Shown: piece by piece, positions 2,017 to 45,632 of the stretch
Layout: each line of letters starts with the position of its first letter
How positions within the stretch are numbered: position 1 is the stretch's first letter
NCBI GenBank assembly: GCA_030390025.1
Contig: CM059431.1
Location: forward strand, 113,090,001 to 113,154,000
Direction: 5' to 3'
Length of the DNA: 64,000 nt
DNA from: Squalus acanthias
Taxonomy: Eukaryota
Position numbers and translations under genes: made by a program
The notes under the pieces: model-generated
Told to the model about the DNA's origin: nothing
What the model saw: the letters and a program-made list of their open reading frames with translations, nothing else
Databases searched by the model: none

Positions 2017-2940
2017 ATGGGAGAGCAGGTGATGTTACTGCTGCAATATGTGGGAGCTGGTGGACACCATTGATGCTCACGGTGATCACATTTGCAGTAA
2101 GTGTTGGCTGCTCGAGGAACTCCGGCTCCGTGTTGATGAGCTGGAGTCCGAGCTTCAAACACCGCGACACATCAGGGAGGGGGAGAGTTACCTGGACTCT
2201 GTGTTCCAGGAAGTAGTCACACCAATTAGATTAACTAATTCAGATGTAGTCCGTGGTCAGGGACAGGAGGGTGTGACTATGAGTGAGGCAGGTACGGGGA
2301 TCCAGGAGGTAGTGTTGGAGGAGCCGCAGCCCTTGCTCTTGTCCAACAGGTTCGAGGCTCTTACTCCCTGTGAGGCCGGGAGCAGGGACTGCAGGGACGA
2401 TGAGCAACCTGGCCACAGCACCGTGGAATGGGGGACCATTCAAGTGGGGGGAGTAAAAAGAAATGTTGTAGTGGTAGGGGATAGTATCATAAGGGGGATA
2501 GATAGGGTTCTTTGCAGCCGAGAGCGAGAGTCCCGAAGGTTGTGTTGCCTGCTCTGGGCTGGAGAGAAACTTGGAGTGGAAGGGGGAGGATCCAGTTGTC
2601 GTGGTCCATGTTGGTACCAACGACATAGATAGGACAAGGAAAGAGGTTCTGCTGAGGGAGTATGAGCAGCTAGGGGCCAAATTAAAAAGCAGAACCACAA
2701 GGGTAATAATCTCTGGATTACTACCTGAGCCACGAGCAAATTTGGCTAGGGTAAATAAGATCAGAGAGTTAAATGCGTGGCTGAAAGACTGGTGTGGGAG
2801 AAATGGGTGTTGCTTCTTGGGACACTGGCACCAGTACTGGGATGGGAGAGAGCTGTTCCGTTGGGATGGACTTCACTTGGCCAGTGCTGGGACTAGAATC
2901 CTGGCGAATTGAATAACTAGGGCTGTAGAGAGGGCTTTAA
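2017..2940 (+). pseudogene. CR1 ORF1p (zf/lz + SGNH esterase), frameshifted
   Basis: Split across ORFs 2048..2632 and 2571..2912, with a premature stop at 2910-2912. Confidence 0.85.
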
Positions 2941-2983
2941 ACTAATTAGTGGTGGGGAGGTTTCAAGAGAGCGAAGAATAAAA

Positions 2984-5926
2984 ATGTCAGCGGAGAAGGC
3001 AATAGAGCAAATTAGCAGTGGGGAAATTAAAAACCAGAGCGTGTCAGGAAGGGACAGAATATATAAAGATAAAGGTAAAGTAGTAAAGGGGGTAAAAGCA
3101 GGAATAAATTGTCACAAAACATGTTTAAAAGTTCTTTATCTGAATGCACGCAGCATTCCTAACAAAATAGACGAGTTGACGGTACAAATAACTACACATG
3201 GGTATGATCTGGTGGCCATTACAGAAACATGGCTGCGAGGTGACCATGACTGGGAACTAAACATCCAGGGGTATTTGACTATTAGGAAGGACAGACAGGA
3301 AGGAAAGGGAGGTGGGGTGGCTATGTTAATAAAGGATGGAATCACTGCAATAGTGAGAAATGATATTGGGTCAAAGGATCAGGATAGTGAAACAGTTTGG
3401 GTGGAGATAAGGAATAATAAGGGGAAAAAGTCACTAGTGGGCATAGTCTATAGTCCTCCTAACAGCTGTAACTCTATTGGTCGGAGTATAAATCAGGAAA
3501 TAGTTGGGGCTTGTAATAAGGGAGCAGCTATAATCATGGGAGACTTTAACTTTCATATTGACTGGACAAATCAAATTGGGCAGGGCAGCCTTGAGGAAGA
3601 GTTCATAGAGTGCATTTGGGATGGGTTCCTTGAGCAGTATGTTACTGAACCAACCAGGGGGCAGGCAATCTTCGATCTGGTCCTGTGTAATAAGACAGGA
3701 TTAATAAAAAATGTCCTAGTAAAGGATCCCCTTTGAATGAGTGACCATAACATGGTTGAATTCCAAATTCAGTTGGAGGGTGAGAGTTGGATCTCAAACC
3801 AGCGTACTAAGCTTAAATAAAGGAGACTATGAAGGTATGAGAGCAGAGTTGACTAAAGTGGACTGGGAAAATAGATTAAGGTGTAAGACGGTACAGGAGC
3901 AGTGGTATACATTCAAGGAGGTATTTCACAACTTTCAAGAAAAATATATTCCACTGAGGAAAAAGGGGCATAAAAGAAAAGACAGCCATCCGTGGCTAAG
4001 TAAAGTAATAAAGGATAGTATCCGACTAAAAACAAGGGCTTCTAAAGTAGCCAAATCTAGTGGGAGGATAGAAGATTGGGAAGCATTTAAAAGCCAGCAA
4101 AGAATAACTAAAAGATTAATTAAGAAGGGGAAGATAGATTATGAAAGTAAACTAGCAAAAAATATAAAAACAGATAGCAAGAGTTTCTACAGTTATATAA
4201 AAAGAAAAAGGGTGGCTAAAGTGAATGTTGGTCCCTTAGAGGACGAGACCGGGAAATTAGTAGTGGGGAACACGGAGATGGCAAATACGCTGAACAAATG
4301 TTTTGTATCAGTCTTTACAGTAGAGGATACTAAAAATATCCCAACACTGGACAAACGGGGGGCTATAGTGGGGGAGGAGCTAAACACGATTAAAATCACT
4401 AAAGAGATGGTACTCGGTAAGATAATGGGACTTAAGGCGAATAAATCCCCTGGACCTGATGGCTTACATCCTAGGGTCGAGAGAAGCAGCGGTAGGGATT
4501 GCGGATGCATTGGTGGTAATTTTCCAAAACTCCCTGGATTCGGGAAAGGTCCCAGCAGATTGGAAAACTGCTAATGTAACGCCCTTATTTAAAAAGGGCA
4601 GTAGACAAAAGGCTGGAAACTATAGACCAGTTAGCCTAACATCTGTGGTTGGTAAAATGTTGGAGTCCATTATTAAAGAAGCAGTAACAGGACATTTGGA
4701 TAAGCATAATTTAATCGGACAGAGTCAGCATGGTTTTATGAAGGGGAAATCATGCTTGACAAATTTGCTCGAATTCTTTGAGGACGTAACAAACAGGGTG
4801 GATAAAGGGGAACCAGTGGATGTGGTGTATTTGGACTTCCAAAAGGCATTTGATAAGGTGCCACACAAGATTACTGCACAAGATAAAAAATCACGGGATT
4901 GGGGGTAATATACTGGCATGGGTGGAAGATTGGCTATCTAACAGAAAACAGAGAGTTGGGATAAATGGTTCATTCTCGGGTTGGCAATCAGTAACTAGTG
5001 GTGTTCCGCAAGGGTCAGTGCTGGGACCCCAACTCTTTACAATCTATATTAACGATTTGGAGGAGGGGACCAAGTACAACGTATCCAAGTTTGCTGACGA
5101 TACAAAGATGGGAGGAAAAGCAGTGAGTGAGGAGGACATAAAAAACCTGCAAAAGGACATAGACAGGCTAAGTGAGTGGGCGGAAATTTGGCAGATGGAA
5201 TATAATGTTGGAAAGTGTGAGGTTATGCACTTTGGCAGAAAAAATCAAAGAGCAAGTTATTATCTAAATGGAAAGAAACTGCAAAGTGCTACAGTACAAA
5301 GGGATCTGGGGGTCCTGGTGCATGAAACACAGGTTAGTATGCAGGTACAGCAGGTGATCAGGAAGGCCAATGAAATCTTGGCTTTTATTGCAAGGGGGAT
5401 GGAGTATAAAAGCAGGGAAGTCTTGCTTCAGTTATACAAGGTACTGGTGAGGCCACACCTGGAATACTGCGTACAGTTTTGGTTTCCATATTTAAGAAAA
5501 GATATACTTGCTCTCGAGGCAGTTCAGAGAAGGTTCACTCGGTTGATTCCGGAGATGAGGGGGTTGACTTCTGAGGAAAGGTTGAGTAGGTTGGGCCTCT
5601 ACTCATTGGAATTCAGAAGAATGAGAGGCGATTTTATCGAAACATATAAGATTGTGAGGGGGCTTGATCGGGTGGAGGCGGGGAGGATGTTTCCACTGAT
5701 GGGTGAGACTAGAACTAGGGGGCATAATCTTAGAATAAGGGGCTGCCGTTTCAAAACTGAGATGAGGAGAAACTTCTTCACTCAGAGGGTAGTAAATCTA
5801 TGGAATTTGCTACCTCAGGGAGCTGTGGAAGCTGCGACATTAAATAAATTTAAAACGGAGATAGACAGTTTCCTAGCTGATAAGGGAATTAAGGGTTATG
5901 GGGAGCGGGCAGGGAAGTGGACGTGA
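2984..5926 (+). pseudogene. CR1 ORF2p (APE endonuclease + reverse transcriptase), disrupted
   Basis: Four overlapping ORFs (2984..3736, 3741..4574, 4459..4908, 4820..5926) reconstitute ORF2; in-frame TGA at 3734-3736 (PL*MSDH) plus several frameshifts. Confidence 0.92.
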
Positions 5927-28726: not shown

Positions 28727-30547
28727 CCACTACTCAAGAAAGGAGGGAGACAGAAAACAGGAAACTGTAGGGCCAGTTAGCCTAACAGCTGTCATTGGGA
28801 AAATGCTGGAATCCATTATTAAGGAAGTAGTAGCATGACATTTAGAAAATCAGAATACAATCAAGCAGAGTCAACATGGTTTTATGAAAGGGAAATAGTG
28901 TTTGACAAATTTACTAGAGTTCTTTGAGGATGTAACGAGCCGGGTGGATAAAGGGGAACCAGTAGATGTAGTATATTTGGATTTCCAGAAGGCATTCGAT
29001 AAGGTGCCACATAAAAGGTTACTGCACAAGATAAGAGCTCAGGGTGTTGGGGGTAATATATTAGAATGGATAGAGGATTGGCTAACTAACAGAAAACAGA
29101 GAGTTGGGATAAATGGGTCAATTTCAGGTTGGCAAACTGTAACTAGTGGGGTGCCACAGGGATCAGTGCTGGGGCCTCAACTATTTACAATCTATATTAA
29201 TGACTTGGATGAAGGGACCGAGTGTACTGTAGCCAAATTGCTGACAATAGAAAGATAAGTGGGAAAGCAAGTTGTGAGGAGGACAAAGAGTCTGCAAAGG
29301 GATATAGATAGGTTAAGTGAGTGGGCAAAAATTTGGCAGATGGGGTATAATGTGGGAAAATGTGAAGTTATCCACTTTGGTAGGAAGAATAAAAAAGCAA
29401 ATTCTTATTTAAATGGGAAGAGAGACTACAAAATGCTGCGGTACAGAGGGATCTGGGGGTCCTTGTACAGGAAACTTTCGTTTATCCGGCACCCAAATAT
29501 CCGGAATTCTCGCTTAACCGGCAAAAATCATCCTCCGAAAACTCCTCACAAATAACCGGCAATGTTGCCGAGTCGCAGTCGAGTCTCCGCGAACGCCGAG
29601 TGCTCCGAAAAATCCTCTCAAATAACCGGCAATGTTGCCGATCCCGAGTCCGAGTCCGAGAACGCCGATTTAGTCAGTAGGGGTACTTTTCAAAAGTGCC
29701 ACTACTCGGCCTCCTGGCGCTGTCGCAAGTCCGAAACATTGCAGTAGCAGGAGTAGATTCTCCTGTGCTGCTTGGAGTCTCTTTGTTAAAAATAGCCTCG
29801 GTAGATATAACTCTCTGTTATCCGGTACTTTCGATAAACCGGCACCACGCCGGTCCCGTCGATGCCGGATAAACGAAAGTTTCCTGTACATGAAACACAA
29901 GTTAGCATGCAGGTACAGCAAGTAATTAGGAAGGCAAATGGAATGTTGGCCCTTATTGCAAGGGGGATGGAGTATAAAAGTAGGGAAGTCTTGTTACAAC
30001 TGGTGAGACCACATCTGGAGTACTGTGTGCAGTTTTGGTCTCCTTATTTAAGGAGGGATATACTTGCATTGGAGGCAGTTCAGAGAAGGTTGATTCCTGA
30101 GATGAAGGGGTTGTCTTATGAAGAAAGGTTGAGCAGGTTGGGCCGCTACTCATTGGAGTTTAGAAGAATGAGAGGTGATCTTATTGAAACATATAAGATT
30201 CTGAGGGGGCTTGACAGGATAGATGCAGGGAGGATGTTTCCCCTTGTGGGGGAATCTAGAACTAGGGGGCATAGTTTCAGAATAAGGGGTCGCCCATTTA
30301 AAACGGAGATGAGGAGGAATTTCTTCACACAGAGGGTGGTGAATCTTTGGAATTCTCTACCCCAGAGAGCTGTGGAGGCGGAGTCATTGAATATATTCAA
30401 GGCGGAGATAGACAGATATTTTGAGCTACAGGGGAGTTGAGGGTTATGGGGAGCGGGTGGGAAAGTGGAGTTGAGGCCAAGATCAGATCAGCCATGATCG
30501 AGGGGCCAAATGGCCTACTCCTGCTCCTATTTCTTATGTTCTTATGT
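28727..30547 (+). mobile_element. CR1 LINE 3' fragment interrupted by a MITE
   Basis: ORFs 28902..29258, 29259.. and 29862..30440 closely match the ORF2 at 4459-5926; ttcttatg tail at ~30530-30547. Confidence 0.93.
29468..29886. mobile_element. Tc1/mariner-pogo(Tigger)-type MITE, 419 bp
   Basis: Perfect 24-bp TIR caggaaactttcgtttatccggca with TA TSD; excision restores CR1 ...gtccttgTAcatgaaacacaag (LVHETQV). Confidence 0.92.
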
Positions 30548-42300: not shown

Positions 42301-44715
42301 AGCACTCATAAGTGTAAGCATATTGAAATATCTTGGTGGCATTCAATAGCATGAGAGTGAGTGGGCATTTATAATAATACTTGGGTTTGTATGAAACCAT
42401 TCATATTGAAATGTTTAGAAGTGGTTCACACCATTCATTTTTGACAAGCTTTGAGTGTTGTGATGAAGATAAAATGTTATGGCTATTCTGTGACAACATC
42501 TCGCAAGTAGTTATGAGATCTGTTTTGTGGTGGTATTGGTTGGGAGGAATCTGGTCCTGTGCACCGGGAAAACTTTTCAAATAGTGCCATGGGATCTTTA
42601 ATAGCCATCTGAACCACTTGATGCCAGATAGTCCCCGACAATCGGGAAAGATCGTGAGTTGAAGGGATGGGGTTCAGATCGGGAGGGAGGGGAAGATCAA
42701 AGGCCAGAAGAGGGGGGGGGGGGGGTGGGGGGGAATGGCAGTGAGGAGAGGTCACGATCGGCAGAAGATTTGTTTGAGGGGCCGGGGGAGCACTCCTGCT
42801 GCTCCTGGCTCACGAGACGTGCTGTAAATGCATTTGCCAAGCTGGACCTGGCCGCTCCCGTCTCTGTCGGGAAACCTGGCCGGCCGGCCAGCGATTAAAC
42901 TTAAATCGGGCTCCCAACTGCACTGTGGGAGACTGAAATAAATATTATAATCAAATGACCCGCCTCTCGAGTGCGGGACACGGACACGGCTCGCACCCCC
43001 CTGCTGTAAAAGTGGCGGCAGGCACGTATGCGGTGGGTTGGGGTTGCGTTTCATGATTTAACATTTTTAACCCCCCCCCCCCCCCAATCCCCTCCCCCCT
43101 GTTATGGGCGGGGGATAATATCGACCCCATAGATGCTGCTCTTGAAATGAAGGGAAACTGAAAGCTTGGGTGCACTAACGGGAAAGCCTCAGACTTTTTG
43201 TGCCTGTTCCACCAGCCCTGCTTCACCAAATGAAGGTTAGTTCCAAGTTTAACCTGGCGTTCGTGAATTAAAGTCTGGAAAACCATTCATACGTAGCAGA
43301 AGTGGTGTGGGCTTTATTGCTGCCATTCTGTGCAAGCTTGGATTAATACTGAACGTTGAAAAGCAGCTATCCTAACAGGAGATGTGCAAAATCTAGCCAG
43401 CAGGTCAAATTTAAGGGGATGTGTGTGATTAAGGGTGGTGCATATGGGGCCAAATATTCTTCAGCCTTTAGAAAGTTTCAAAAATGAATATCGGCCTCTG
43501 CCAAGGTTGTGGGGAGTGGAGGGGAAGGAGTGGCGGGCAGAATTGAAGTAAAAGGAAACCCAATGTGAAGGCACGAAACGGAATCTGTGGGCATGTAATG
43601 GAGTGGTGCAGTGCCCGACTCCCTGTTTGATGGCTGGCAAAGTGAATCTGCTGCTGCATGAGGTGGGTGCGAGGGAAGGCGCCTTGTTTGGAACTTCACC
43701 AGTCCTCCCCAGCTTGCCTGTCTCAAGGTGTCAGCCAGCCGTAGCGGTCTGTATAGTAGCACAGTTACCATTTACTACACGTTGTACTCTTGGGAACCCC
43801 AGCACTCAGGAAATGTTCTATGTCCTGTTGAGCTGATCTCTCCTTTCCACAGAGAAAGTGATGAAGATTTTGACTGTTGCAGATAAAATCTCTTTTGCTC
43901 GACGCAGCTAGCTGACTTATTGATGTGACACTCGTTACCAGTGCTAGTTTGGAAGGAACCAGTGACGTAAAGGTTTTATGCACACTCGTGGGAAGAGCCA
44001 TCACTGTGGCGCAAGTTGTCTTCAGGTTGGCTTCCAAGAGATAGCTATGTGACAGCCCCTTTTGTAAAGCAAGGGCAGCAAATACAGGAAGAACCATCTG
44101 GGCATGTCATAGTAGATCTGCCTTTCGCACTTCCACTTCATGAAGGGGCTGCCATTTAGCCGTGGCCTCTCTCCCAAGTGCCCAGATTAGCAGACACCTT
44201 ATGCAAGCCTGTGAACATACAGCATGCACGCACCTTCTGTTAGTAGTGTGCTTGATGTTTGTTGCTTGCCATATTTCATGGGCCACAGGACAAACATATT
44301 GTCAACACAGAGTGCCATGATAAAAAAAAATGGTCATGCCTCTGCATTTGAAAAGTATGTGAATAGTTGCCAGAGTTGTTATGTCTGATAAACACTCAAG
44401 TTGATGTAGTAATGTGATAACTGCTTTTATTTCAGATTCTCTGGAACATTCTCTCTAGATATAACAAACAGAGGAGACCTGTACTGTAATTGCAACAGGA
44501 TGCTTGCTCCAATCAGGGGGCCTTCTAGTGTCCAGTTAACAATATGCAATATACAATACGTTTCACTTTTTCCCCCCTCAGAATATCAAAGTGACAATAA
44601 TCATCTCCAAGAATAAGCCTGGTTAACAGCTAAATAACATTAAGTAAAGAAATTCTGAAACTATGTAATTCAAAAATAGAGTACAAAAGCCAGGTAGTTA
44701 TGCTAAACCTATGTA

Positions 44716-44930
44716 TGATGTGGAGATGCCGGTGTTGGACTGGGGTGGACAAATGTGAGAAGTCGCACAACACCAGGTTATAGTCCAACAGTTTTATTTG
44801 AAATCACAAGCTTTCGGAGCGCTGCTCCTTCGTCAGGTGACTTCACCTGACGAAGGAGCAGCGCTCCGAAAGCTTGTGATTTCAAATAAAACTGTTGGAC
44901 TATAACCTGGTGTTGTGCGACTTCTCACAC
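44716..44930. mobile_element. Fold-back mini-Penelope-like element (family P2) with 11-bp TSD
   Basis: Perfect 87-bp inverted repeat 44754-44840 / 44843-44929 plus a 38-nt unpaired left end; TSD aaacctatgta at 44705-44715 and 44931-44941. Confidence 0.85.
44843..44879 (+). ncRNA. Minimal type I hammerhead ribozyme motif (mirror copy on the - strand at 44804-44840)
   Basis: tcac-CTGACGA-a-GGAGC agc GCTCC-GAAA-GC-TT-gtga: stem I tcac/gtga, stem II of 5 bp, palindromic AGCT stem III, UH site ending at 44875. Confidence 0.8.
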
Positions 44931-45421
44931 AAACCTATGTAAAACACTAGTTCAGCCCCAGCTTGATCAGTGTGCCCAATTCTGGGCACCACACTTTAGG
45001 AAGGATGTGAAGGCTTTGACGAGAGTCCAGAAAAGATTTACTCGAATGGTTCCAGGGATGAGGGATTACAGTTACGTGGATAGACTAGAGAAGCTGGGGT
45101 TGTTCTCCTTGGAGCACAGAAGGGTTAGAGGAGATTTTATAGAGGTGTTTAAAATCATGAAGGATTTAGATAAAGTAAAGAGAAACTGTTTCCAATGGCT
45201 GAAGGGTCGATTAATGAGAGGGCACAGATTTAAGGTGAATGGCAAAAGAACCAGAGGCGACATGAGGAAACTTTACGCAGCGAGTGGTTAGGATCTGGAA
45301 TGCACTGCTTGATAGAGTGGTGGATACAGATTCAATAGTAGCCTTCAAAAGGGAATTGGATGAATACGTGAAGGAGAAAAGATTGCAGGGGTATGGGGAA
45401 AGAGCCAGGGAGTAGGACTAA

Positions 45422-45632
45422 TACAAAAGCAAAATACTGCGGATGCTGGAAATCTGAAATAAAAACAGAAAATGCTGGAAATACTCAGCAGGTCAGGCAG
45501 CATCTGTGGAGAGAGAGAAACAGAGTTAATGTTTCAGGTCGAAGGGTCATAGACCTGAAATGTTAACTCTGTTTCTCTCTCCACAGGTGCTGCCTGACCT
45601 GCTGAGTATTTCCAGCATTTTCTGTTTTTATT
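45422..45632. mobile_element. Fold-back mini-Penelope (family P1) with 15-bp TSD
   Basis: Near-perfect arms ~45458-45540 / 45552-45632; TSD agggagt(a/g)ggactaa at 45407-45421 and 45633-45647. Confidence 0.85.

What the first reader, a model, noticed from the sequence alone, without database searches (positions are those of the whole stretch)
44716..44930. Perfect 87-bp palindromic mini-element with an intact hammerhead ribozyme on each strand and an 11-bp TSD
Seen: a 215-bp insertion in a CR1 relic, flanked by the exact duplication aaacctatgta. It has a 38-nt unique end plus a mismatch-free 87-bp inverted repeat with a 2-nt spacer. Each arm holds tcac-CUGACGA-A-GGAGC(agc)GCUCC-GAAA-GC-UU-guga, i.e. 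the full hammerhead core with stem I, stem II and a loopless palindromic (AGCU) stem III. An AATAAA follows ~10 nt after the predicted cleavage site (44875). Known: Penelope-like retroelements carry such minimal hammerheads, thought to cleave as dimers, and often integrate with an inverted terminal repeat. Inference: this is a young, protein-free ribozyme-bearing unit mobilised in trans (retrozyme-like). The + strand copy lies in SLAIN intron 2 pre-mRNA, where the 87-bp fold-back should compete with and mask ribozyme folding.
Basis: partly seen in the sequence, partly recalled or inferred. Interest (0 to 1): 0.8.

Follow-up and report, generated by a model that had tools for sequence, protein, structure and literature searches.

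The report
Head-to-head stub of Penelope-like retroelement
This hairpin-shaped insertion is a common dead-end by-product of a known jumping gene (a Penelope-like retroelement): two DNA copies of its ribozyme-bearing front end were joined head to head, and the joints of thousands of sister insertions record how such elements probably land.

Summary
In detail: an 87-bp perfect inverted repeat, an 11-bp target duplication and a minimal hammerhead motif in each arm. The reading as a separate retrozyme-like unit is not supported. Each arm is the 5' leader (start site to ATG) of an autonomous Penelope-like element (892-aa RT + GIY-YIG ORF); the 38-nt end is the published PLE 'tail'. The genome holds 3,099 head-to-head pairs with short, variable centres; about 420 share this one, in both polarities and on many subfamily backgrounds. 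The stub lacks the parent's TATA box, and read-through RNA would bury both ribozymes in a hairpin. What the junctions add: arms stop at the Inr A 30 nt behind the TATA box and carry a non-genomic G there (3,137 vs 366 control matches), as expected from copying a capped 5' end. The commonest centres are the symmetric overlaps of two such cDNA ends. Best model: both target strands prime cDNA, both run off the 5' end and are joined. Ribozyme activity and the start site were not shown on RNA. This scan noted the same kind of stub in two other shark genomes.

The parts
44705..44715 (.). Left copy of the 11-bp target-site duplication
   Evidence: family D6; frame restored at the empty site
44716..44753 (-). 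38-nt PLE 'tail': last part of the parent's 5' leader, ending at the A of the ORF start codon; marks the outer reverse-transcription start site
   Evidence: the same letters run into ATG-GCT-ACT... in 77 copies; tail concept from PMC11167929, PMC8557442
44716..44840 (-). Tail-bearing arm: parent leader from +4 to the start codon
   Evidence: 96-98% identical over 125 nt to leaders in L116, L118, L122; 90-92% to full-length L091-L094
44804..44840 (-). Minimal type I hammerhead motif, minus-strand copy (predicted cut between 44808 and 44807)
   Evidence: mirror of the + copy
44837..44844 (.). Head-to-head junction. 44840 is the inferred +1 A of the tail-less arm, 44839 the non-genomic G at -1; 44841-44842 is the unpaired centre
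44840..44929 (+). Tail-less inverted arm: parent leader from +1 to +90, ending at the inner reverse-transcription start site
44843..44879 (+). Minimal type I hammerhead motif: stem I 44843-46/44876-79, core 44847-53, bulged A, stem II 44855-59/44863-67, GAAA 44868-71, GC, UU; predicted cut 44875/44876
44885..44890 (+). AATAAA 10 nt behind the predicted cut (mirror copy on the - strand); part of the parent leader, role untested
44931..44941 (.). Right copy of the target-site duplication
44640..45290 (+). Host site: decayed CR1-like LINE fragment (approximate bounds) inside a SLAIN intron
   Evidence: the CR1 label is recalled

Best explanation
The 215 bp are a dead-end integration product of a Penelope-like element (PLE) of Neptune/Nematis type. 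Shown: the arms are two copies of the parent's 5' leader joined head to head between duplicated target bases; one arm ends at the ORF start, the other about 40 nt short of it. Inferred: the parent's pLTR promoter (TATA at -30, Inr TCACTTC) makes a capped RNA that begins ACUUCACC, just ahead of the hammerhead. The PLE protein cuts both target strands and primes cDNA from each, at the two internal start sites that bound the tail. Both lie in the leader, so both cDNAs run off the 5' end after about 90 and 128 nt, and RT adds a C opposite the cap. The two ends (...GGTGAAGTC-3') are then joined; here they overlap by six bases with two central mismatches, which repair or replication resolves to AG or CT. 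The product keeps two uncut hammerheads as passengers, has no promoter, and in read-through RNA such as SLAIN pre-mRNA folds as an 87-bp hairpin that masks them.
For: Parent found: pLTR-ORF-pLTR copies with an 892-aa ORF (L091-L094; RVT_1; relatives carry GIY-YIG PF01541); the window's own tail runs into the ORF start in 77 copies. Family scale: 24,647 matches of a 17-nt ribozyme piece, 3,099 head-to-head pairs with centres up to 20 nt. In 40 loci taken in order, 26 head-to-head elements were seen, none with this exact centre; 21 of 26 have an arm ending between -2 and +4 (the pattern forces one arm to reach +4). After the run-off end GAAGT, C follows 3,137 times and T 366 times; neither is genomic: -1 is C or T in the ACTTCACC-type rows among the 100 listed, and G at -1 behind a TATA box has 11 matches genome-wide. 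Of 82 loci in the first 100 rows, the three symmetric overlaps of two C-extended ends make up 29, 21 and 17, against 3 for the equally placed T-only microhomology and 1 blunt join. In subfamilies with T at -1 (100 of 100 rows) a central C:G pair that neither strand templates occurs in 6 of 76 loci. L095-L097 carry the extra G on both arms; L108 and L109 carry it on solo arms (20 loci picked, most chosen for lying outside the common classes). Both polarities occur, 177 and 413. Target duplications of 9 nt or more in 16 of 19 unselected same-centre copies, against 24 of 342 mismatched pairs. Precedent: a purified anole PLE cuts and extends both target strands from two internal start sites, using uncut RNA (PMC11167929); an extra G marks capped 5' ends in L1 products (PMC11702581).
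Against: No RNA 5' end was seen: the runs laid were contigs only. The extra C could be plain terminal-transferase bias and not cap copying. Polarity is 30:70, not 50:50. Arms agree at subfamily-diagnostic sites in 40 of 48 copies scored, which also fits one cDNA folding back. A sister family did not give a clean repeat of the test: my first guess for its +1 failed (24 matches, no C bias) and the second guess is confounded by a GTAC palindrome (75 C, 14 G, 11 T). Duplex energies did not favour the C-extended end. In CUGAGGA subfamilies the TATA lies at about -32/-33, not -30. Two pairs of nearby loci share long-centred junctions (L043/L044, L046/L048), so junctions can sometimes be passed on.
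Confidence: 0.72

Rival explanations
1. Same PLE by-product, but the mirror arm is made by one cDNA folding back on its own 3' end and copying itself (self-priming), with no second primed cDNA.
For: Arms agree at diagnostic sites in 40 of 48 copies, and L066 shares two private changes on both arms. Self-priming was proposed for palindromic PLE junctions (PMC3846280, passages). The 30:70 polarity could reflect which site primes first.
Against: Eight of 48 copies differ between arms at subfamily sites, L017 at two linked sites. The common centres would need hairpin loops of 0-2 nt. Both outer ends sit at the two start sites with intact duplications, which fold-back alone does not explain. The published version needs an antisense template, whereas the arms here end at the sense start site with an added G.
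Confidence: 0.15
2. One reading: a fixed 215-nt palindromic, ribozyme-bearing non-autonomous element that is transcribed by read-through and re-copied in trans as a unit.
For: 420 exact copies of the centre; the 30 best copies are 98-100% alike with their own duplications (selected for likeness). Priming from both strands on a hairpin RNA could also give both polarities. L043/L044 and L046/L048 show shared junctions at different sites.
Against: The centre recurs on at least eight stem/loop II backgrounds and at a similar share in diverged subfamilies, so it must arise anew many times. No TATA box in the unit. The L043/L044 junction has 2 copies in the genome, 103 kb apart, which points to a local event. 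No head-to-tail tandem; ribozymes masked.
Confidence: 0.1
3. A MITE-like DNA transposon or a microRNA hairpin.
For: Short, palindromic, many copies; Rfam microRNA models score the hairpin below threshold (mir-1597 50.9 against 93 bits).
Against: Duplications vary from about 9 to 15 nt, the ends are asymmetric, and the arms are the leader of an RT-encoding element.
Confidence: 0.02

Closest known systems
Inverted pLTR plus 'tail' insertions of EN+ Penelope-like elements (PMC3846280; PMC8557442 Fig. 2 legend; PMC8969392)
   Same: Head-to-head 5'-truncated pLTR copies, a 30-40 bp tail on one side, variable-length target duplication, TATA plus TCACT initiator in the pLTR.
   Different: No ORF at all: both copies stop at the start site. 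Published text (passages read) explains junction palindromes by self-priming on an antisense template; the junctions here point to two sense-RNA cDNAs with an added terminal C.
Minimal hammerheads of metazoan PLEs (PMC4209133; review PMC6765202)
   Same: 4-bp stem I, bulged base before stem II, G-C closing pair, palindromic loopless stem III; that paper already reports pairs 100-700 bp apart on opposite strands.
   Different: Here the pair is 2 nt apart. No shark family is mentioned in the parts read.
PAc (Poseidon, green anole) in vitro system (PMC11167929)
   Same: Two internal RT start sites bounding the tail, both target strands cut and extended, uncut RNA as template, AT-rich targets.
   Different: In PAc the start sites lie 111-118 nt inside the ORF and the ribozyme overlaps the ATG; here they lie at and about 40 nt before the ATG. 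Inverted products are not treated in the text read.
Animal non-LTR retrozymes (PMC7229834; bioRxiv 10.64898/2026.07.22.740005)
   Same: Short, non-coding, type I hammerhead, derived from PLE pLTRs.
   Different: Retrozymes are head-to-tail tandems that yield circular RNA; this is head-to-head, with one sense ribozyme per strand.
L1 twin priming and cap-derived 5' G (PMC11702581, passages)
   Same: Two target-primed cDNAs joined at an inversion junction; extra G at fully copied 5' ends.
   Different: L1 primes from poly(A) and a random internal site, giving inversions without a palindrome; here two fixed sites on the same leader give a palindrome.

Membership tests
EN+ Penelope-like element insertion | Parent with one ORF: RT followed by C-terminal GIY-YIG endonuclease with CCHH motif | tested here: met
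   892-aa ORF in L091-L094; RVT_1 35.1 bits, cut-off 29.6. The GIY-YIG part gave no Pfam hit of its own; it is read by eye (VVY..C..C..YIG, later H, H, E, N) and relatives carry PF01541.
EN+ Penelope-like element insertion | ORF flanked by direct pseudo-LTRs | tested here: met
   4 of 4 full-length copies fetched
EN+ Penelope-like element insertion | Inverted 5'-truncated pLTR and a 30-40 bp tail on one side | tested here: met
   Window: 38-nt tail, 87-bp inversion; same layout
EN+ Penelope-like element insertion | Target-site duplication of variable length | tested here: met
   11 bp here; 16 of 19 unselected copies with 9 nt or more, control 24 of 342
Neptune/Nematis-type PLE | CX2-5CxxC motif in the RT-EN linker (PMC8557442) | tested here: met
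   C-HGKL-C-KT-C in L091-L094
Neptune/Nematis-type PLE | Placement in Neptune rather than Nematis by RT phylogeny | not tested
   No named reference sequences at hand; hits bear no clade names
Minimal type I hammerhead of PLEs | Core boxes, stems I and II, bulged base, G10.1-C11.1, palindromic 15.2-16.2 | tested here: met
   Read against PMC4209133. Sister subfamilies keep stem II while loop II varies from 3 to 9 nt, change stem I from UCAC/GUGA to UUAC/GUAA, and vary N7 and H17 (the search pattern required the core, so core conservation is by construction).
Minimal type I hammerhead of PLEs | Match to a curated Rfam hammerhead model | tested here: not met
   Best 15.3 bits against a gathering score of 75
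Minimal type I hammerhead of PLEs | Self-cleavage as a dimer | not testable with these tools
   Genomic footprint test inconclusive; RNA runs were contigs only
Non-LTR retrozyme | Head-to-tail tandem repeats, each with a hammerhead | tested here: not met
   Single head-to-head pair
Non-LTR retrozyme | Circular RNA from double self-cleavage | not testable with these tools
   Only one sense ribozyme per strand, so not expected
Independent non-autonomous element | Fixed internal junction inherited from a master copy | tested here: not met
   Variable centres; same centre on many subfamilies and both polarities. A minor inherited share is not excluded.
Independent non-autonomous element | Own promoter | tested here: not met
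   The parent's TATA lies 30 nt upstream of +1 and is absent from the insert; an internal promoter was not assayed

The most novel reading that the evidence does not exclude
The thousands of head-to-head stubs are an in vivo record of PLE integration: both nicked target strands prime cDNA on capped, uncut sense RNA, RT copies the cap as an extra C, and the two ends are joined through that C. This would explain PLE inverted repeats without an antisense template, fix the transcription start to one base directly ahead of the hammerhead, and suggest that partial tandems form when a run-off end jumps to a second RNA (L117, L119, L120, L123).
Probability: 0.6. Interest if true: 0.6.

Novelty: new member of a known kind. 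Interest (0 to 1): 0.38.

Why it matters
The insert itself is ordinary for a genome rich in Penelope-like elements: one of thousands. The value lies in the population. How PLEs build inverted repeats is called unresolved in PMC8557442 and PMC3846280. The junction spectrum here gives a specific, testable answer (two primed cDNAs, cap-derived C, end joining) that fits the one in vitro system (PMC11167929), and intact 892-aa parents exist for such a test. It also implies that the hammerhead is usually uncut in the RNA that gets copied, and that host introns carry many perfect 90-bp hairpins that could feed A-to-I editing or small RNAs (untested).

Tried and rejected
Rfam: no hammerhead family near threshold. 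Polarity as a test against a master copy: both polarities occur, but priming from both strands on a hairpin RNA would give both too, so it is not decisive alone. Genomic footprint of ribozyme cleavage: about 14 of the 100 listed junctions have an arm starting at the predicted cut (490 matches in all), but all share GTGA microhomology from stem I, and a 2-nt microhomology class reaches about 10; no clean signal. L043/L044 junction as a propagating master: 2 copies only. Sister-family start at its first Inr-like A: not supported; second guess confounded. Duplex energies of cDNA ends with or without an added base: uninformative, T scored best. RNA runs: 24 listed, 4 laid, all contigs and of guessed RNA type; they hold the leader but show no ends, strand or editing. 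No look-alike of the sequence among earlier scan findings. Literature searches that found no report of cap-derived G or twin priming at PLE inverted junctions, nor of this shark family; whole-word 'cap' is absent from PMC3846280 and PMC8557442. Repbase/Dfam, subscription papers, the 2017 dimer paper and all supplements were not seen, so the family and the idea may be in print there. A genome-wide tree of arms could not be built because the genome was available only in pieces.

Full report
Observation. The sequence is as described. Arms 44754-44840 and 44843-44929 are 87 nt and fully complementary, and an 11-nt direct repeat bounds the 215 bp. The empty site reads as one continuous LINE-like frame. 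SLAIN Pfam hits on the + strand either side place it in a SLAIN intron. Each arm holds a minimal type I hammerhead motif; Rfam does not recognise it.

What it is. The genome (3.7 Gb; nearest named relatives of the parent protein are shark proteins at 86-92% identity, so the host is probably a shark, by inference) holds 24,647 exact matches to a 17-nt piece of the ribozyme. [quoted passage not shown] That is a Penelope-like element of Neptune/Nematis type by the criteria in PMC8557442 (passages read); Neptune against Nematis was not tested. The window's tail-bearing arm is 96-98% identical to the stretch between the promoter and the ATG of the nearest subfamily (L116, L118, L122), and its tail runs into the ORF start in 77 copies. 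An inverted pLTR, a 30-40 bp tail and hammerhead pairs on opposite strands are all published PLE features (PMC3846280 and PMC8557442, passages; PMC4209133, parts 1-2 of 4).

Is it a unit of its own? The 30 best copies look fixed, but they were selected for likeness. In 40 loci taken in order (two pairs of them segmental duplicates) there were 26 head-to-head elements, none with this centre. Genome-wide there are 3,099 pairs with centres up to 20 nt, of which about 420 have this centre (slightly different flanks in the two patterns). It occurs with the tail on either arm (177 and 413; 4, 15 and 1 tail-less among the first 20 hits), on at least eight stem/loop II variants, and at 22 of 76 loci in diverged CUGAGGA subfamilies against 29 of 82 in the main group. 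So the junction is built anew many times. The stub lacks the parent's TATA box, and a read-through RNA of either strand folds as a hairpin of -172 to -180 kcal/mol that takes in the ribozyme. Against this reading: L043/L044 and L046/L048 share long-centred junctions at different sites. The first has only 2 copies, 103 kb apart; the second was not counted.

How it most likely forms. Parents carry TATATAT 30 nt ahead of an initiator-like TCACTTC. Arms tend to stop at that A: 21 of 26 elements have an arm ending between -2 and +4 (one arm is forced to reach +4 by the pattern, yet non-inverted copies in the same sample run on for 60-600 nt). The base beyond the stop is C in 3,137 cases and T in 366, though a G at -1 is almost absent from promoter-bearing copies (11 matches). 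Counting by hand the first 100 rows (82 loci of 1,286 strand matches): 29 have the window's centre, 21 GAAGT|CTTCACC, 17 GAAGT|C|ACTTCACC, 3 an extra untemplated C, 3 GAAGT|TCACC, 1 blunt, 8 other. The top three are the 6-, 3- and 1-base symmetric overlaps of two ends ...GAAGTC-3'. The third class could use a genomic C at -1 in this group, but it persists (6 of 76) where -1 is T; there the blunt palindrome rises to 8 of 76, as the genomic T predicts. Three loci carry the added G on both arms and two on solo arms. An added G at fully copied 5' ends is the known mark of cap copying in L1 products (PMC11702581, passages). A purified anole PLE cuts and extends both target strands from two internal start sites and uses uncut RNA (PMC11167929, parts 1-2 of 4). 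Together: two cDNAs primed from the two target strands run off the capped 5' end and are joined. The anatomy and counts are shown; the start site, the cap and twin priming are inferred.

Results against or unclear. No RNA ends could be seen. A sister family did not give a clean repeat. Duplex energies did not favour the added C. Arms agree at subfamily sites in 40 of 48 copies (2 of 50 not scored), which fits fold-back as well as one source locus; 8 discordant copies favour two cDNAs. A cleavage footprint at the ribozyme site is confounded by stem I microhomology. In CUGAGGA subfamilies the TATA spacing is -32/-33.

The ribozyme. It has the features of PLE minimal hammerheads, and sister subfamilies vary as a working hammerhead allows: a double-sided change in stem I, free loop II, N7 and H17 (211 motifs, 64 variants, core required by the pattern). 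Selection acts on the parent, not on this stub. Such ribozymes cut weakly and as dimers in vitro (PMC4209133; PMC6765202, passages). Activity here is untested.

Comparison and novelty. It works like, and is, a PLE inverted-pLTR insertion. It is not a retrozyme as defined in PMC7229834 (passages) and bioRxiv 10.64898/2026.07.22.740005 (part 1 of 5 and passages), which require head-to-tail tandems. PMC2377424 (passages) describes a TATA-less internal promoter for Drosophila Penelope, unlike this family; PMC8969392 (passages) lists inverted pLTRs as routine. My searches found no account of cap-derived G or twin priming at PLE junctions; supplements, Repbase/Dfam and subscription papers were not seen. 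Two earlier notes of this scan on other shark genomes reached the same verdict on the stubs; they are unchecked and did not shape my reading.

Verdict. Real feature, known kind, interest 0.38. The insert is ordinary; the junction evidence for how PLE inversions form is the part worth testing.

Noticed in passing
window 45458-45632: A second inverted repeat (66-nt arms, 94% complementary, with an inner 30-nt pair) lies 500 bp downstream; similar sequence appears in flanks of L078 and L079, so it is another dispersed hairpin-shaped repeat.
   Followed up: no
L117, L119, L120, L123: The ORF start is joined directly to the leader at or next to +1 (in L120 with a G before it), suggesting that a run-off cDNA end jumps to a second RNA and so forms partial tandems.
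   Followed up: partly
L043/L044 (G000:C1:2938290, 3041878) and L046/L048: Nearby but separate insertions share an identical long-centred junction; L043/L044 carry the tail on opposite arms. Local gene conversion or local re-insertion is the likely cause.
   Followed up: partly
L099, L100, L101, L103: Four of 20 loci share a junction in which the run-off end is followed by CA and the partner starts in stem II; both polarities, different subfamilies. Unexplained.
   Followed up: no
L092, L094: Full-length copies with intact ORFs carry CCGACGA in place of CUGACGA in both pLTRs, a core change expected to weaken the ribozyme (recalled), hinting that cleavage is dispensable for copying.
   Followed up: no
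L091: The 5' and 3' pLTRs of one element belong to different subfamilies (85% alike), pointing to a chimera made from two RNAs.
   Followed up: no
flanks of many loci: Many insertions sit inside CR1-like LINE fragments, as this one does; may only reflect how much of the genome such LINEs fill.
   Followed up: no
window 28899-29255 and 2033-5923: An RT fragment (RVT_1 hit) lies near the first SLAIN-like exon, and long open frames at the window's left end look like another retroelement.
   Followed up: no
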